A stretch of DNA of 64,000 nucleotides from an uncultured Candidatus Saccharibacteria bacterium (GCA_964576475.1 CAZNVG010000002.1:7859-71858); one strand, 5' to 3'; shown: positions 45,347-54,129, numbered from the stretch's first letter. The notes: a model not told the origin generated them from the letters alone. Made by a program: numbers and translations.

Positions 45347-45772
45347 GTGTTAAAGATACCGCCAGGAAACACTATATCTGTCCTATGTTCACAACAGGAC
45401 GATTCTGAGGTAACGATCGCCCGCTTCTTCTGGCCGATCATGCAACCAAACGAAACTTACACAATTGCTCTGGGAAGAACGGTATCTATCGCTCTCGACT
45501 TACACATTCCAGTTCGACCAGAACGTGTTCTTTGGAGGCACGACAACAGCGAGATTGGCGCGGAAGGTCAGCTGGAAAAGTATTTTGGTTCGGAACTTTT
45601 ATCATCTATGGAAATAGCGCGTGACATAGGATGGTGTGCGGTTGACCTCAGCCTGTCTCCTGAACAACGTAGAAATATAGCAGCACTGCAAGAAGAAGAT
45701 CCATCGACACCCGACGCACTTCGTCGCGGATGCCATGCAATGCTTCAAAGCGAATCACACCATCAAGACTAG
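45347..45772 (+). CDS. hypothetical protein (GTG start; 141 aa)
   Basis: ORF only. Converges on atpC with a 4-nt overlap. Start uncertain. Confidence 0.35.
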   Translation: MLKIPPGNTISVLCSQQDDSEVTIARFFWPIMQPNETYTIALGRTVSIALDLHIPVRPERVLWRHDNSEIGAEGQLEKYFGSELLSSMEIARDIGWCAVDLSLSPEQRRNIAALQEEDPSTPDALRRGCHAMLQSESHHQD

Positions 45773-46200
45773 CGATGTTTACGTCGCCGAAGTTCAGCGA
45801 CTTTAAGTCGTGAAGCGTGTCTATCCACTAATGCCTGTGCGTGTTCTAGGCTTACTCTGTCTTGCGCTTCAGAACGCAGCTCTTGAGCGCGCTTGAAGGC
45901 AGCTTCGGCCTCTTGTTCGTTTACTTCATCTTCTTTATCGGCTTCATCCACCAAGACACGCACTGCTTTATCATGTTCCAAAATCTCAAGCACGCCACCG
46001 GCGGTTGCAAAATATTCAAGTTTTGAGTCAGGGTCATCCGCCTTGCGCCTGACAGAAATAACGCCAGGCACTATGATACTGACGAGAGGGGCGTGATTCT
46101 CGAAGACAGCAATATATCCATCAGGAGTGGGTAGCATGACTTCATGAACTGCATCACCGAACTTAATGCCATCGAGAGTCACGAGTTGAAAGGTTATCAT
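45769..46200 (-). CDS. atpC: F1 ATP synthase epsilon subunit
   Basis: N-terminal beta-sandwich pattern (L.V.TP.G.....V..V..P...G...IL..H.P) and a C-terminal helical hairpin. Confidence 0.85.
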   Translation of the reverse strand: MITFQLVTLDGIKFGDAVHEVMLPTPDGYIAVFENHAPLVSIIVPGVISVRRKADDPDSKLEYFATAGGVLEILEHDKAVRVLVDEADKEDEVNEQEAEAAFKRAQELRSEAQDRVSLEHAQALVDRHASRLKVAELRRRKHR

Positions 46201-46382
46201 GCAGTGCCCTCTGGGGTGTCATAGATTGCATGATCAAGTGCTTCAAACATAACAACCTCACCAATAGTCTTGGCTTCAGGATATACGCCCTCAACCCAAG
46301 GCTCGAAAGCTGCTCGTAATTCATGATGCCGCTGATTCCAGCCGGCAGGTAAATGATAGTCGCCCAAAACATTCTCAGCCAT
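46197..46382 (-). CDS. small hypothetical protein (61 aa) inserted between atpD and atpC
   Basis: Fills the whole atpD-atpC gap. Start overlaps the atpD stop (TAATG) and its stop overlaps the atpC start (ATGA). RBS-like gcgaggt upstream. Confidence 0.45.
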   Translation of the reverse strand: MAENVLGDYHLPAGWNQRHHELRAAFEPWVEGVYPEAKTIGEVVMFEALDHAIYDTPEGTA

Positions 46383-47764
46383 TATTTGACCTCGCTTATC
46401 TTACCTTTCATATAAAATGCGCTCTCCGGTTTATCATCGTGCTTACCATCGAGAATCTCTCTGAAGCCGATGATCGTATCTTTTAGTGATACATACGAGC
46501 CGGGGTTTCCTGTGAACACTTCAGCAACATGGAATGGCTGTGTTAAGAATCTTTGAATACGTCGTGCGCGCGACACAGTTTGTTTATCTTCGTCCGACAA
46601 TTCTTCCATACCCAAAATCGCAATAATGTCCTGCAAATCTTTATATCTCTGCAAAATACGCTGAACTTCACGCGCGACTTCATAATGTTCCTTGCCGATT
46701 ATCTCTGGGTCAAGAATAGTCGAGCTTGAGTCGAGAGGATCGACGGCAGGGTAGAGACCAAGCTCTGTAAGTGCTCGGTTTAGCACGATGGTAGAGTCAA
46801 GGTGTGCGAAGGCCGTAGCTGGCGCCGGATCAGTAGGGTCATCTGCTGGCACATACACGGCCTGAACAGATGTGATAGAACCAGTCTTAGTACTCGTGAT
46901 TCTTTCCTGAAGTCCACCCATCTCTTGTGCAAGGTTTGGCTGGTATCCGACAGCTGAGGGCAGCCGACCGAGAAGCGCAGATATTTCAGCTCCAGCCTGC
47001 GTAAATCGGAATATATTATCCACGAAAAGCAAGACATCTTTTCCTTCATCGCGAAAACCTTCCGCAATAGTTAGCCCTGATAGGGCGACTCGGAGACGAG
47101 CTCCTGGCGGTTCATTCATTTGACCAAAGACGAGACTGGTTTTATCGAGCACGCCAGACTCTTCCATTTCATAGTACAGATCGTTTCCTTCGCGAGTTCG
47201 CTCACCGACACCCGCAAAAACAGAGGTTCCGCCATGTTCTTTGGCAATGTTATTGATCAGCTCTGTAATAAGCACCGTCTTACCGACACCCGCACCACCA
47301 AACAGCCCAACCTTACCACCTTTAGTAACAGGACAAATTAGATCGATAACTTTAATGCCTGTCTCAAGTATTTCAGTAGTACCTGACTGCTCGGAAAGAG
47401 TAGGGGGAGTTCGATGTATCGAAGCTCTCTTTTTGACATCAATTTTTTTACCATCAATCGGCTCACCGACAACATTAAACATTCTACCAAGTGTTTCCTT
47501 GCCAACCGGAACACTAATTGGCGCACCCGTGTCTGTTACGCTCGCGCCTCGCTCTAGCCCGTCAGTTGAACTGAGTGCGATAGCTCTCACACTTGATTCG
47601 CTCAGGTGCTGGGCAACCTCAAGTACTAGTTTTCGTTCATCTAGTGATACCTCAAGCGCGTTATAAATAGCCGGTAGATCACCCTCGCTAAATTCGACAT
47701 CTACAACGACGCCAACTACTTGGCTGATCTTTCCTGGTTTCGTTTGTAATTTTGCTGTTGCCAT
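46382..47764 (-). CDS. atpD: F1 ATP synthase beta subunit
   Basis: Walker [31 protein letters not shown]. Confidence 0.97.
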
Positions 47765-48237
47765 TAGTTTTTCTCCATTCCTTCATTAGATGCTTTGTCG
47801 TCAGTTCCGAATACTATTTCTCGTAGAAGTCGCAAGTGCTTGTCGGTAAGCTCACCGTTATCTCGTTTGCGGCGAATCAACTCCACAAAACGTTGCGCAC
47901 CTCCACTATTCTGTGTGGACGTCTCTGTCGAAATCTCGGTTCCTGCCAGATCCTGAGACAGTTCTCGTTGCGCAGTGATACCTTGGCTAAATATCTCTAA
48001 TTGCGCTCCAAGAATCCTCTCACGATCTTCATCGGAAACAGTGCGGACTCTCTGTCCATTGGCGATACCTTGCTCATACAGTGTGTGTCCAACATGCATA
48101 AACCACTCTTGTGCCCGTCGAGAATCATCGGCATCAAGTCCGCCAAGCCATTCGACCAGTAGAGGCGATTGATCCATGATTCGTTCAATCCTAAACTCGA
48201 CACTAGATTCATTTGGCAACGACCGCTGTTCGCTCAT
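47764..48237 (-). CDS. hypothetical protein (157 aa) inserted between atpG and atpD
   Basis: Own RBS aggaga upstream. Its stop overlaps the atpD start (TAATG). No motif recognised. Confidence 0.5.
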
Positions 48238-52963: not shown

Positions 52964-52977
52964 CGTGTTCTCCTTGT

Positions 52978-53235
52978 TTACTTAACGATTAAGCTGCCTA
53001 GGAATGCAAGTAGAGCTGTAACCTCGATCATAGCTGCGATAATCACAACTTGACCTGCGGCTTTACCAGCTTCTGGATTGCGACCCAAAGCTTTCATGTA
53101 GTTTGAACCAACCATTCCGAGCCCGATAGCAGCTGCAGAAAACGCAATACAGAGCATGATTGATTTGCTCATTGTTGGATTCCATCCGCCAGTAATTTCG
53201 GCTTCGGCTAGTTTAGTTAGTACTGTTGGAACCAT
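52978..53235 (-). CDS. atpE: Fo ATP synthase subunit c
   Basis: Hairpin with polar loop ALGRNPEA and ion-binding Glu in AAMIEVTALLAF. RBS aagggga. Confidence 0.85.
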   Translation of the reverse strand: MVPTVLTKLAEAEITGGWNPTMSKSIMLCIAFSAAAIGLGMVGSNYMKALGRNPEAGKAAGQVVIIAAMIEVTALLAFLGSLIVK

Positions 53236-53280
53236 GTTATTTTCCCCTTTGTCCTATTAATTTGTAATGGTTCTGATATC

Positions 53281-54129
53281 TCAACCTGGTGCCTGAGCTT
53301 TTTCAAGCGTATCAGCAATTTGGTGAGCGGTGTCATGATGTGCTTCCTCGTGGTGTGTGGCGAGGCCAAGGTAGGTAGCACACAGCACGGTAAACACATA
53401 GGCTTGAATACCTGCGACCAACATCTCGAACATGGCCACCGGCAGGATAGTAAAGCTCTGAAAATCTTTGCCCACCCAGGCAAATACCGCGATGAGAATA
53501 TCACCGACGGCAGTATTTAGGAATAATCGAAGTGCTAACGAAGTAATTCTGGTAAGCTCACCAAAAACCTCAAGTATGCCGATAAACATGTTTATCGGGT
53601 TAAAGGGCTTATCGGTGAAATAATGTTTAAGGTGTCCGAGAAATCCAGATTCCTTAATAGACAGGTACTGTACTGTTATGATCGCGATAACTGCCATTGC
53701 AATAGTGCCGTTAAGGTCTGCCGTAAATGCTCGAAACAGCGGGATGATACCTTCATCAGTTTTTGCATAAAGCCCATGACCAACCCACGGCATGATGCCC
53801 ATGATATTGCTGAACATTATAAAAATAAAAAACGTCCCAAAGATTGGGGCGTATTTCACAGCTTTCTTGCGTGAACCGAGCGGTCCTTCGATGAGTCCAA
53901 TGATAAATTCAACGAGCATTTCTACTATTTGCGTGACGCCCTTAACAGCGCGTACGCGCACTTTGCGGCTAATAAAAAGCATCAGGATTATCAACAAAAC
54001 AGAACAAATTAGTCCATAGATGATGGAATTGCTAATGGTAAATCCACCAATTTTAAAAATCGCCTCTGGCGCGAGAGCGATAGGAGGACCATCAGTCGTG
54101 GAAGCTAAACGTGACAGAAGACTGTGCAT
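53281..54129 (-). CDS. atpB: Fo ATP synthase subunit a
   Basis: Polytopic. Essential Arg in SLALRLFLNTAVGD. First gene of the operon. Confidence 0.85.
   Translation of the reverse strand: MHSLLSRLASTTDGPPIALAPEAIFKIGGFTISNSIIYGLICSVLLIILMLFISRKVRVRAVKGVTQIVEMLVEFIIGLIEGPLGSRKKAVKYAPIFGTFFIFIMFSNIMGIMPWVGHGLYAKTDEGIIPLFRAFTADLNGTIAMAVIAIITVQYLSIKESGFLGHLKHYFTDKPFNPINMFIGILEVFGELTRITSLALRLFLNTAVGDILIAVFAWVGKDFQSFTILPVAMFEMLVAGIQAYVFTVLCATYLGLATHHEEAHHDTAHQIADTLEKAQAPG

What the first reader, a model, noticed from the sequence alone, without database searches (positions are those of the whole stretch)
45769..54129. F1Fo ATP synthase operon interrupted by four unknown ORFs
The order is atpB-E-F-H-A-[227 aa]-[177 aa]-G-[157 aa]-D-[61 aa]-C, all on the minus strand. 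The inserted ORFs fill the gaps completely. Three use overlapping stop/start codons with the flanking subunit genes: TAATG at 50457, 47764 and 46382, ATGA at 46197-46200, and 8-nt overlaps at 49774-49781 and 49248-49255. Each has a plausible RBS. The canonical operon atpIBEFHAGDC has no genes between alpha, gamma, beta and epsilon. Such tight coupling implies co-expression with F1 subunits in fixed proportions. These could be lineage-specific accessory subunits, assembly chaperones or inhibitors, analogous in concept to the zeta subunit or AtpTheta. None carries a motif I recognise.
Basis: partly seen in the sequence, partly recalled or inferred. Interest (0 to 1): 0.8.

Follow-up and report, generated by a model that had tools for sequence, protein, structure and literature searches.

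The report
Orphan genes wedged into ATP synthase operon
In this Saccharibacteria genome four real but species-restricted genes of unknown function sit between the F1 ATP synthase genes, and in related genomes the same three gene junctions often hold other, unrelated small genes, so they look like fast-turnover passengers rather than conserved parts of the enzyme.

Summary
On the minus strand the order is atpB-E-F-H-A-[227]-[177]-G-[157]-D-[61]-C, with the stated 1-, 4- and 8-nt overlaps and an SD-like motif before each ORF.

The four inserts are real genes. A sister strain keeps all four at identical lengths, with dN/dS of 0.08-0.18 and an excess of third-codon-position changes.

They are strict orphans. 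There is no Pfam, NCBIfam, PHROG, PADLOC or PDB match. The large protein collections return only the sister strain's copies.

The nearest sampled species (gamma 67-71 % identical) lack them: atpA and atpG are 3 nt apart. Two of these species carry different ORFs at G-D and D-C.

Across about 80 Saccharibacteria loci, gaps of 250 nt or more occur at 37 of 228 F1 junctions against 1 of 216 Fo/stalk junctions. The gaps are mostly filled by same-strand, coupled, mostly acidic orphan ORFs. Their distribution on the tree is patchy, and they include a PIN toxin-antitoxin pair and a Crp regulator.

My reading is that the F1 junctions are permissive, high-turnover slots for lineage-specific genes expressed by translational coupling. 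They are not conserved accessory subunits, although a species-specific role in modulating F1 is not excluded.

The parts
53281..54129 (-). atpB (Fo subunit a), 282 aa, first gene of the operon
   Evidence: ORF. tblastn conservation across Saccharibacteria loci. Not scanned against family libraries; assigned from operon position, length and hydrophobic sequence.
52978..53235 (-). atpE (Fo subunit c), 85 aa
   Evidence: ORF. Conserved in relatives at 76-94 % identity. Not scanned against family libraries.
52415..52963 (-). atpF (subunit b), 182 aa, TTG start
   Evidence: Pfam ATP-synt_B, E = 3.7e-17.
52029..52418 (-). atpH (delta/OSCP), short form of 129 aa, GTG start overlapping the atpF stop by 4 nt
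   Evidence: Pfam OSCP, E = 7.9e-17, matching only profile positions 54-171 of 172. Junction.
50457..52019 (-). atpA (F1 alpha), 520 aa
   Evidence: TIGR00962, 739 bits.
49774..50457 (-). orf227: orphan gene at the A-G junction. Its ATG overlaps the atpA stop (TAATG). Soluble, pI 5.0.
   Evidence: Junction. No family. Only itself and an 87 % sister copy among 5.8e9 clusters. Only itself among 1.84e9 representatives by phmmer. dN/dS 0.14, p = 1e-14. AF2 pLDDT 37.8.
49248..49781 (-). orf177: orphan gene at the A-G junction, with 8-nt overlaps on both sides. Acidic helical N-terminal part and an Arg/Gly-rich tail.
   Evidence: Junction. Only itself and a 90 % sister copy. dN/dS 0.18, p = 3e-8. 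No PDB match.
48272..49255 (-). atpG (F1 gamma), 327 aa, with a clade-specific 38-aa acidic insertion (residues 166-203, window 48647-48760)
   Evidence: TIGR01146, 280 bits. Insertion mapped.
48238..48271 (-). 34-nt spacer between atpG and orf157, the only true spacer in the F1 half. It carries the AGGAG of orf157.
   Evidence: A weak promoter-like match (9 of 12) lies here, but such matches are no more frequent than in shuffles.
47764..48237 (-). orf157: orphan gene at the G-D junction. Its stop overlaps the atpD start (TAATG). All-helical, pI 4.9. The only insert with a detectable distant relative at the same junction (L016).
   Evidence: Junction. Only a 94 % sister copy in the protein collection. 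27 % identity over 95 aa to L016:8989-9279, which also abuts atpD with TAATG. dN/dS 0.08, p = 2e-11. AF2 pLDDT 51. No fold match.
46382..47764 (-). atpD (F1 beta), 460 aa
   Evidence: TIGR01039, 800 bits.
46197..46382 (-). orf61: small orphan gene at the D-C junction, TAATG with atpD and ATGA with atpC. pI 4.6.
   Evidence: Junction. Frame confirmed by the codon-position pattern. dN/dS 0.09, p = 4e-5. No homology search was possible beyond family libraries and PDB. tblastn against the fetched loci finds only the 93 % copies in the sister-strain contigs L001/L002.
45769..46200 (-). atpC (F1 epsilon), 143 aa, last gene of the operon. Its stop overlaps the stop of a convergent ORF (45347-45772, + strand).
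   Evidence: TIGR01216, E = 7e-22..

Best explanation
The four ORFs are real, species-restricted orphan (ORFan) genes embedded in the F1 half of a Saccharibacteria atp operon.

Expression (inferred): they are transcribed on the operon mRNA. They are translated by termination-reinitiation coupling, because their starts overlap or abut the stop of the upstream gene and each has its own SD-like site. They are therefore made whenever alpha, gamma and beta are made.

Role: they are not conserved components of the enzyme. Across Saccharibacteria the three junctions A|G, G|D and D|C behave as permissive, high-turnover slots. Small, mostly acidic, soluble, lineage-specific genes are gained, lost and replaced there. 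The Fo/stalk junctions stay closed.

Most likely these proteins are dispensable passengers that use the constitutive, strongly expressed operon as an expression platform. Each is kept by selection within its own species for a function that need not involve the ATP synthase.

Shown here: gene reality, coupling anatomy, orphan status, purifying selection, absence from the nearest species, the junction hot spot and its patchy distribution.

Inferred: co-transcription, translation by coupling, dispensability, and that the function is not a stoichiometric F1 role.
For: Anatomy: the overlaps and RBS-like motifs are. Internal promoter- and terminator-like sites are no more frequent than in shuffles.

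Coding:
- The sister strain L001 keeps all four ORFs at identical lengths.
- dN/dS is 0.14, 0.18, 0.08 and 0.09, against 0.002-0.025 for the atp genes.
- Binomial p ranges from 4e-5 to 1e-14.
- All four show a third-codon-position excess.

Orphan status:
- Searches return only self and sister clusters.
- phmmer against 1.84e9 representatives returns only orf227 itself.
- There are no Pfam, NCBIfam, PHROG, PADLOC or PDB matches.

Not conserved:
- tblastn finds none of the four in 80 Saccharibacteria loci, apart from one weak orf157 link.
- The nearest species have an A-G gap of 3 nt.
- Score-decay extrapolation predicts 60-195 bits for orthologs at that distance. None is seen, so the G-D and D-C occupants in L005 and L007 are non-orthologous.

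Hot spot:
- Gaps of 250 nt or more occur at 37 of 228 F1 junctions against 1 of 216 Fo/stalk junctions, Fisher p = 1e-10. One A-G case, L067, is a frameshifted atpA.
- 31 of 37 gaps are more than 70 % covered by same-strand ORFs, against 5 of 37 for the opposite strand.
- Sister species differ in which junction is filled.
- Insert interiors are unalignable while the flanks are 84-88 % identical.

Mixed cargo supports the passenger reading:
- A PIN toxin with a small upstream partner sits at D-C in L075.
- A Crp regulator, histidine kinases and a response regulator sit at D-C in L010, L004 and L008.

Native composition: GC and GC3 match the atp genes. There are no flanking repeats and no paralogs in the window.
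Against: - The restriction to F1 junctions, the same-strand orientation and the tight coupling are also what an F1-related function would predict.
- 43 of 55 junction ORFs are acidic. That could mean a shared mode of action, or just the purine-rich coding strand.
- Same-junction ORF pairs are slightly more similar than cross-junction pairs: Z > 4 in 4 of 335 against 0 of 586, p = 0.017. orf157 has a positional relative in distant L016. So at least the G-D slot may hold an old, fast-evolving family.
- Selection was measured on a single strain pair.
- There is no genome-wide control showing that other conserved operons in these genomes lack such inserts.
- No expression data are available.
Confidence: 0.6

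Rival explanations
1. These are species-specific F1 modulators. The junction ORFs would be fast-evolving accessory proteins, such as inhibitors, activators or assembly aids of F1. They would be functionally analogous to the epsilon C-terminal domain, zeta, IF1 or AtpTheta, and are placed in the operon so that they are made in proportion to alpha, gamma and beta. This is the first reader's idea, generalised to a non-homologous set of analogous proteins.
For: - Tight same-strand coupling to F1 genes.
- Purifying selection.
- Inserts are confined to F1 junctions and absent from Fo junctions.
- The ORFs are predominantly small, acidic and soluble.
- Residual same-junction similarity, and the orf157-L016 link at the G-D junction.
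- The same clade also carries a hypervariable acidic insertion inside gamma.
- Patescibacteria lack a respiratory chain and may run the enzyme in reverse, so unusual regulation is conceivable (PMC11665869, read).
Against: - No conservation even in the nearest species, and the junctions are empty in most Saccharibacteria.
- The number and size of ORFs per junction vary from 0 to 2 ORFs and from 40 to 230 aa.
- Clearly unrelated cargo (toxin-antitoxin pair, Crp, histidine kinase) uses the same slots.
- No similarity to any known ATP synthase partner in Pfam, NCBIfam or PDB.
Confidence: 0.2
2. This concerns origin, not function. The junction ORFs would be born de novo from expanded spacers, or from terminal extensions, inside a heavily transcribed and ribosome-loaded operon. 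They then come under selection. On this view the F1 junctions are a cradle for new genes, not a landing site for foreign ones.
For: - Host-like GC and GC3, and no mobile-element marks.
- Strict orphan status in very large databases.
- Hydrophilic, acidic, low-confidence or partly disordered proteins, as expected from a purine-rich coding strand.
- Hypervariable acidic sequence also expands inside gamma in the same clade.
- Orphan origins by de novo birth, rapid divergence or unsampled transfer are all considered open in bacteria (PMC12315717, read).
Against: - No non-coding precursor was found. The nearest species have 3 nt, 38 nt or other full ORFs at these junctions.
- ORFs of 157-227 codons with dN/dS near 0.1 are long and constrained for very young genes.
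- No relative shows long terminal extensions of alpha, gamma or beta that could have split off.
Confidence: 0.25
3. The inserts are remnants or cargo of a selfish or mobile element, such as a free-standing homing-endonuclease-type gene, a toxin-antitoxin module or a miniature insertion, that targets the conserved F1 genes.
For: - Presence and absence are patchy among close relatives.
- One relative carries a PIN toxin pair at D-C.
- From my own knowledge, not tested here: CPR bacteria are known for insertions in conserved genes, such as rRNA introns.
Against: - None of the four window ORFs has a nuclease, toxin, transposase or integrase domain.
- No direct or inverted repeats bracket the inserts.
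- Composition is native.
- There are no paralogs in the window.
- Frames are intact and under purifying selection, so these are not decaying remnants.
Confidence: 0.04
4. The inserts are non-coding spacers that happen to be open, or assembly or annotation artefacts.
For: orf61 alone is short enough to be open by chance (p = 0.04).
Against: - Stop-free probabilities are 5e-6 to 2e-4 for the other three.
- Lengths are conserved, differences are biased to third positions and dN/dS is far below 1 in all four.
- The locus is identical in independent assemblies.
Confidence: 0.01

Closest known systems
Taxonomically restricted (ORFan) genes of bacteria
   Same: No homolog outside a very narrow taxon in very large databases, short to medium length, no known domain, yet under purifying selection. 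The origin is undetermined, and de novo birth, rapid divergence and unsampled transfer are all open (PMC12315717).
   Different: These sit inside one of the most conserved operons of bacteria and are translationally coupled to its genes, not in islands or at operon edges. Their composition is native. The same three junctions are reused by unrelated ORFans across a whole class.
Integration hot spots or variable slots between core genes, including phage 'moron' and accessory-gene slots (general knowledge)
   Same: Conserved flanking genes, different and unrelated cargo in related genomes, a patchy phylogenetic distribution, and occasional toxin-antitoxin cargo.
   Different: The slots are single intergenic junctions inside an essential operon. 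Cargo is usually one or two small co-oriented ORFs with no promoter, terminator or recombination site of their own. No integrase, attachment site or repeats were seen.
Small regulators of F-type ATPase: epsilon C-terminal domain, zeta subunit of alpha-proteobacteria, mitochondrial IF1, cyanobacterial AtpTheta
   Same: Small soluble proteins that could in principle meet F1 in the cytoplasm.
   Different: No sequence similarity to any of them. From my own knowledge, those regulators are conserved across their lineages, and zeta, IF1 and AtpTheta are encoded outside the F1 gene string. The ORFs here are not conserved even between neighbouring species.
Extra genes in atp operons: atpI, the atpZ/urf6 type, atpQ/atpR of N-ATPase operons, and 'gene X' between the gamma and beta genes of Rhodopseudomonas blastica (recalled from memory: Tybulewicz, Falk and Walker 1984; not retrievable in the library)
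   Same: Non-subunit ORFs co-transcribed with ATP synthase genes. If I recall gene X correctly, it occupies the same G-D junction.
   Different: atpI, atpZ, atpQ and atpR are membrane proteins at the Fo end and are conserved families. The ORFs here are soluble, lie at the F1 end and are non-conserved. No Pfam family of this kind matches.

Membership tests
Canonical F1Fo ATP synthase operon (atpBEFHAGDC) | The subunits are present, co-oriented and in the canonical order, and are recognised by curated models | tested here: met
   Six of the eight were tested and recognised. Alpha, beta, gamma and epsilon score above their TIGR equivalog cut-offs. b and delta score above the Pfam gathering score. 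Delta is below the NCBIfam delta cut-offs because it is short. atpB (a) and atpE (c) were not scanned and are assigned from position, length, hydrophobic sequence and tblastn conservation.
Conserved accessory subunit or assembly factor of the lineage's ATP synthase | Orthologs co-occur with the atp genes across the lineage that has the enzyme | tested here: not met
   None of the four is detectable in 80 Saccharibacteria loci, apart from one 27 % link for orf157. The nearest species have a 3-nt A-G spacer. Absence is not explained by divergence alone.
Conserved accessory subunit or assembly factor of the lineage's ATP synthase | Physical association with F1 or F1Fo | not testable with these tools
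   This needs purification, proteomics or multimer modelling. Only single-chain AF2 was available, and confidence was low.
Known F-ATPase inhibitors and partners (epsilon CTD, zeta/DUF1476, IF1, AtpTheta, AtpI, Atp11/Atp12) | Sequence similarity to the family profile or to a solved chain | tested here: not met
   No Pfam or NCBIfam hit at E <= 1 other than noise. No PDB chain at E <= 0.05.
Bacterial ORFan / taxonomically restricted gene | No detectable homolog outside a narrow taxon despite deep database search | tested here: met
   Searches cover orf227, orf157 and orf177. orf61 was tested only against the fetched loci and family libraries.
Bacterial ORFan / taxonomically restricted gene | Evidence that it is a real gene and not a spurious ORF | tested here: met
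   dN/dS 0.08-0.18 with p from 4e-5 to 1e-14, third-position bias and conserved length.
Variable gene slot / insertion hot spot between core genes | The same inter-core-gene position holds different, unrelated cargo in related genomes, more often than control positions | tested here: met
   37 of 228 F1 junctions against 1 of 216 Fo/stalk junctions, p = 1e-10. Cargo is non-homologous. Distribution on the tree is patchy. Caveats: the loci are phylogenetically non-independent, and there is no control from other operons.
Toxin-antitoxin module | A recognisable toxin or antitoxin domain in a two-gene pair | tested here: not met
   The window ORFs have no such domain. Only relative L075 has a PIN pair at D-C.
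Mobile element / homing-endonuclease gene | A nuclease, transposase or integrase domain, or terminal repeats or target duplication | tested here: not met
   No domains. No bracketing repeats. Native composition.

The most novel reading that the evidence does not exclude
The A|G, G|D and D|C junctions of Saccharibacteria atp operons would be a dedicated hypervariable slot system. Small acidic proteins that are translationally coupled and turn over fast would tune or gate F1, for example controlling ATP hydrolysis in organisms that lack a respiratory chain, in a species- or host-specific way. Alternatively, the junctions would be a natural cradle where new protein-coding genes are born inside a heavily translated operon and rapidly come under selection.
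Probability: 0.2. Interest if true: 0.8.

Novelty: new variant of a known kind. Interest (0 to 1): 0.55.

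Why it matters
The atp operon is among the most conserved gene strings in bacteria, and textbooks treat atpAGDC as uninterrupted. This work shows that in one major group of ultrasmall episymbiotic bacteria the F1 junctions are repeatedly colonised by selected, species-restricted orphan genes, while the Fo junctions are not.

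If the proteins touch F1, this is an unexplored layer of ATP synthase regulation in organisms whose use of the enzyme is itself unclear. If they do not, the locus is a clean, well-anchored natural system for studying how orphan genes arise, are expressed by translational coupling, and turn over. That is exactly the kind of traceable case the ORFan field says it lacks (PMC12315717).

Tried and rejected
- Structure route. AF2 on orf227 gave pLDDT 37.8. AF2 on orf157 with its sister sequence gave pLDDT 51. The Foldseek search of PDB with the orf157 model gave nothing (best E = 0.41, TM 0.25). There is no usable fold information.
- Remote homology. phmmer of orf227 against 1.84e9 representatives returned only itself. 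Iterative HMM searches among the junction ORFs added no members.
- A motif I thought I saw by eye in G-D ORFs (a helix followed by phi-G-phi-x-x-G). An unbiased HMM search over 6,724 six-frame ORFs of all loci did not support it, so I dropped it.
- Derivation from neighbouring subunits or from paralogs. BLAST of the inserts against the atp subunits and against the whole window gave only noise.
- Mobile-element marks. Repeats, PHROGs and PADLOC all came back with nothing.
- Metagenome scan for relatives at intermediate distance, using the lineage-specific middle of gamma. It returned only two short, distant contigs.
- An apparent alpha-gamma fusion in L031, L032, L047, L050 and L052 (gaps of -870 to -888). 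This was an artefact of a tblastn alignment running through an in-frame stop.
- The 'A-G insert' of L067. It is the C-terminal part of a frameshifted atpA.
- An extension-then-fission origin. No relative has real long terminal extensions of alpha, gamma or beta.
- Literature. I found no paper describing inserts in Saccharibacteria or CPR atp operons. The Rps. blastica gene X paper is not in the library.

Full report
**1. Observation**

Curated models confirm alpha (739 bits), beta (800 bits), gamma (280 bits), epsilon, b and delta. atpB and atpE were not scanned. I assign them from position, sequence character and tblastn conservation.

The junctions are:
- TAATG overlaps at A/227, 157/D and D/61
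- an ATGA overlap at 61/C
- 8-nt overlaps at 227/177 and 177/G
- one true 34-nt spacer, between G and 157

Each insert is preceded by a GGAG-type motif. Internal promoter- and terminator-like sites are no more frequent than in shuffled sequence. This is consistent with one transcription unit, but that is an inference.

Identical copies of the locus occur in assemblies from several independent sequencing runs. A second strain carries the same arrangement.

**2. The inserts are genes**

Stop-free runs of 227, 177 and 157 codons have chance probabilities of 5e-6 to 2e-4 at this composition. For orf61 the probability is 0.04.

I compared the window with the sister strain L001, where dS is about 0.3-0.6.
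- All four ORFs keep exactly the same length.
- dN/dS is 0.14, 0.18, 0.08 and 0.09, against 0.002-0.025 for alpha, beta, gamma and epsilon.
- Neutrality is rejected with p from 4e-5 to 1e-14.
- Differences are concentrated at third codon positions.

So the inserts are protein-coding and constrained. Their dN is still roughly 4-65 times that of alpha, beta, gamma and epsilon (about 2-4 times gamma's).

**3. They are orphans**

There is no Pfam, NCBIfam, PHROG or PADLOC family and no PDB chain.

The 5.8-billion-cluster protein search returns only the window's own cluster and the sister strain's for orf227, orf157 and orf177. An exhaustive phmmer of orf227 against 1.84 billion representatives returns only itself.

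Structure prediction without an alignment failed, with pLDDT 37.8 and 51. A fold search on the better model is uninformative.

The proteins are soluble and acidic to near-neutral, with pI 4.6-6.2. Their GC and GC3 match the neighbouring atp genes. There are no paralogs in the window and no bracketing repeats.

**4. Relatives**

A scan of species-representative genomes with gamma identifies the organism as a Saccharibacteria (TM7) bacterium. It gave 80 loci with gamma identity from 71 % down to 38 %.

tblastn with all twelve proteins finds the eight atp genes everywhere. It finds none of the four inserts, apart from one weak orf157 hit in L016.

In the nearest species (L004-L007) atpA and atpG are separated by 3 nt. 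These species differ at the other junctions:
- L005 and L007 carry other ORFs at G-D (210 + 141 aa; 87 aa) and at D-C (160 aa; 115 aa).
- L004 and L006 have a 1,887-aa histidine kinase on the opposite strand between atpD and atpC.

**5. The general pattern**

Across the loci, gaps of 250 nt or more are found at these rates:

| Junction | Gaps of 250 nt or more |
|---|---|
| A-G | 10 of 76 |
| G-D | 15 of 78 |
| D-C | 12 of 74 |
| B-E | 0 of 53 |
| E-F | 0 of 50 |
| F-H | 1 of 56 |
| H-A | 0 of 57 |

Fisher's test on F1 against Fo/stalk junctions gives p = 1e-10. One A-G case, L067, is a frameshifted atpA.

Further features of the pattern:
- **Coding:** gaps of 150-1300 nt are more than 70 % covered by same-strand ORFs in 31 of 37 cases, against 5 of 37 for the opposite strand. 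These ORFs typically start at the stop codon of the upstream subunit.
- **Unrelated to each other:** they are almost all singletons by BLAST and by iterative HMM.
- **No families:** about 45 of 50 have no Pfam or PHROG family.
- **Acidic:** 43 of 55 have pI below 6.
- **Recognisable exceptions:** a PIN toxin with a small upstream partner (L075, D-C) and a Crp regulator (L010, D-C).
- **Patchy:** on a tree of concatenated alpha, gamma and beta, occupancy is patchy, and sister species differ in which junction is filled.
- **Fast turnover:** in sister pairs the flanking gene ends are 84-88 % identical in DNA, while the insert interiors are unalignable.

**6. Divergence or turnover?**

I fitted each insert's score decay on the window-L001 pair. 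Orthologs at the distance of L004-L007 should still score about 60-195 bits.

The model overestimates at long range: orf157 against L016 is observed at 34 bits against 124 predicted. Even with that faster decay, an orf157 ortholog in L005 or L007 should score about 100 bits.

None is seen. The occupants of the same junctions in the closest species are therefore non-orthologous, which means gain, loss or replacement.

There is also a faint signal of positional continuity. All four ORF pairs with a Smith-Waterman Z-score above 4 are same-junction pairs: 4 of 335 against 0 of 586, p = 0.017. The 27 % end-to-end match of orf157 to the L016 ORF involves two genes that both abut atpD with TAATG. At least the G-D slot may hold an old, fast-evolving lineage in some branches.

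**7. Interpretation**

The reading that fits best is that the F1 junctions of Saccharibacteria atp operons are permissive, high-turnover slots. The window's four ORFs are the current occupants in one species. They are expressed through the operon's transcription and by translational coupling, and they are kept by selection within the species. They are not conserved parts of the enzyme.

Why F1 junctions and not Fo junctions is unexplained. I can offer two untested inferences:
- Stronger constraints on co-translational assembly or expression ratios among a, c, b and delta.
- Alpha and beta are 80-90 % conserved and could serve as anchors for homologous recombination.

The rival that the ORFs are species-specific F1 modulators keeps about 0.2 probability, because location, orientation and coupling are what it predicts. 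Patescibacteria lack a respiratory chain and may use the enzyme in reverse (PMC11665869).

The origin of the ORFs cannot be decided between de novo birth, unsampled transfer and extreme divergence. That matches the state of the field (PMC12315717).

**8. Comparison with what is known**

The closest categories are bacterial ORFans and variable slots between core genes. Membership of known ATP synthase partner families was tested and not met. I found no description of this pattern in the searchable literature.

The only precedent I can recall is 'gene X' between the gamma and beta genes in Rhodopseudomonas blastica. That is from memory and could not be verified.

**9. Verdict**

Novelty: a new variant of a known kind, namely orphan genes or variable slots, here inside the F1 gene string and recurrent across a bacterial class.

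Interest is 0.55. The pattern is unexpected and cleanly anchored, but the function remains unknown. Three limits remain:
- The key controls are outstanding: other operons, denser sampling and expression data.
- Selection rests on one strain pair.

Noticed in passing
window 48647-48760 (atpG residues 166-203): Gamma is 327 aa, against a median of 291 aa, because of a 38-aa acidic insertion. Only the window's immediate clade has it (L004, L005, L007, and by gamma length also L006, L008 and L060). Its length and sequence vary between species. So hypervariable acidic sequence also expands inside an F1 subunit in the clade that has the busiest junctions.
   Followed up: partly
window 52029-52418 (atpH): The delta/OSCP subunit is only 129 aa at most, and public gene calls give 117 aa. 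It matches only positions 54-171 of the 172-position OSCP profile, so about 50 N-terminal residues, the part that normally contacts alpha, appear to be missing. An upstream stop prevents a longer ORF. tblastn hits in relatives are similarly short.
   Followed up: partly
L004:10484-16147, L006:10530-16196, L008:2689-8536, L010:10335-14043, L011:10524-11909: In several close relatives atpC is separated from atpD by 1.5-6.4 kb. The inserts are related large histidine kinases with Ig-like domains on the opposite strand. L010 also has a response regulator, a PAS histidine kinase and a same-strand Crp-family regulator. Epsilon is thus detached from the rest of the operon in those species.
   Followed up: partly
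L075:10690-11403: A same-strand VapBC-like pair sits between atpD and atpC: a 92-aa basic protein with a weak DUF6364 match, followed by a 144-aa PIN-domain protein.
   Followed up: yes
window 46163-46372 (minus strand): A 69-aa ORF in another frame overlaps orf61 and the start of atpC, and it is also open in the sister strain. It accumulates 13 amino-acid changes against 4 for orf61, so it is probably not coding.
   Followed up: yes
window 45347-45772 (+ strand): A convergent 141-aa ORF ends 4 nt inside the 3' end of atpC, so the two stops overlap. No terminator-like hairpin lies between the two genes. The sister strain has a 159-aa gene in the same place.
   Followed up: no
window 54130-54400: No atpI-like hydrophobic ORF precedes atpB. 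The upstream region is AT-rich with weak promoter-like matches. The 80-aa ORF at 54105-54347 does not look like a membrane protein.
   Followed up: no
L067:2880-4408: atpA of this MAG is split into two ORFs. The second, 199 aa, carries the end of the nucleotide-binding domain and the C-terminal domain. This is a frameshift or assembly error that mimics an A-G insert.
   Followed up: yes
L005:5978-6460 and L060:2081-2416: The D-C junction ORFs of these two species are homologous to each other: 35 % identity, E = 2e-12, Z = 20. This is the clearest case of a junction ORF shared between species.
   Followed up: partly
window 47748-47764 and 52003-52019: atpA and atpD begin with nearly the same 17 nt (ATGGCAACAGCAGAATT / ATGGCAACAGCAAAATT), giving MATAE and MATAK. 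Probably trivial.
   Followed up: no
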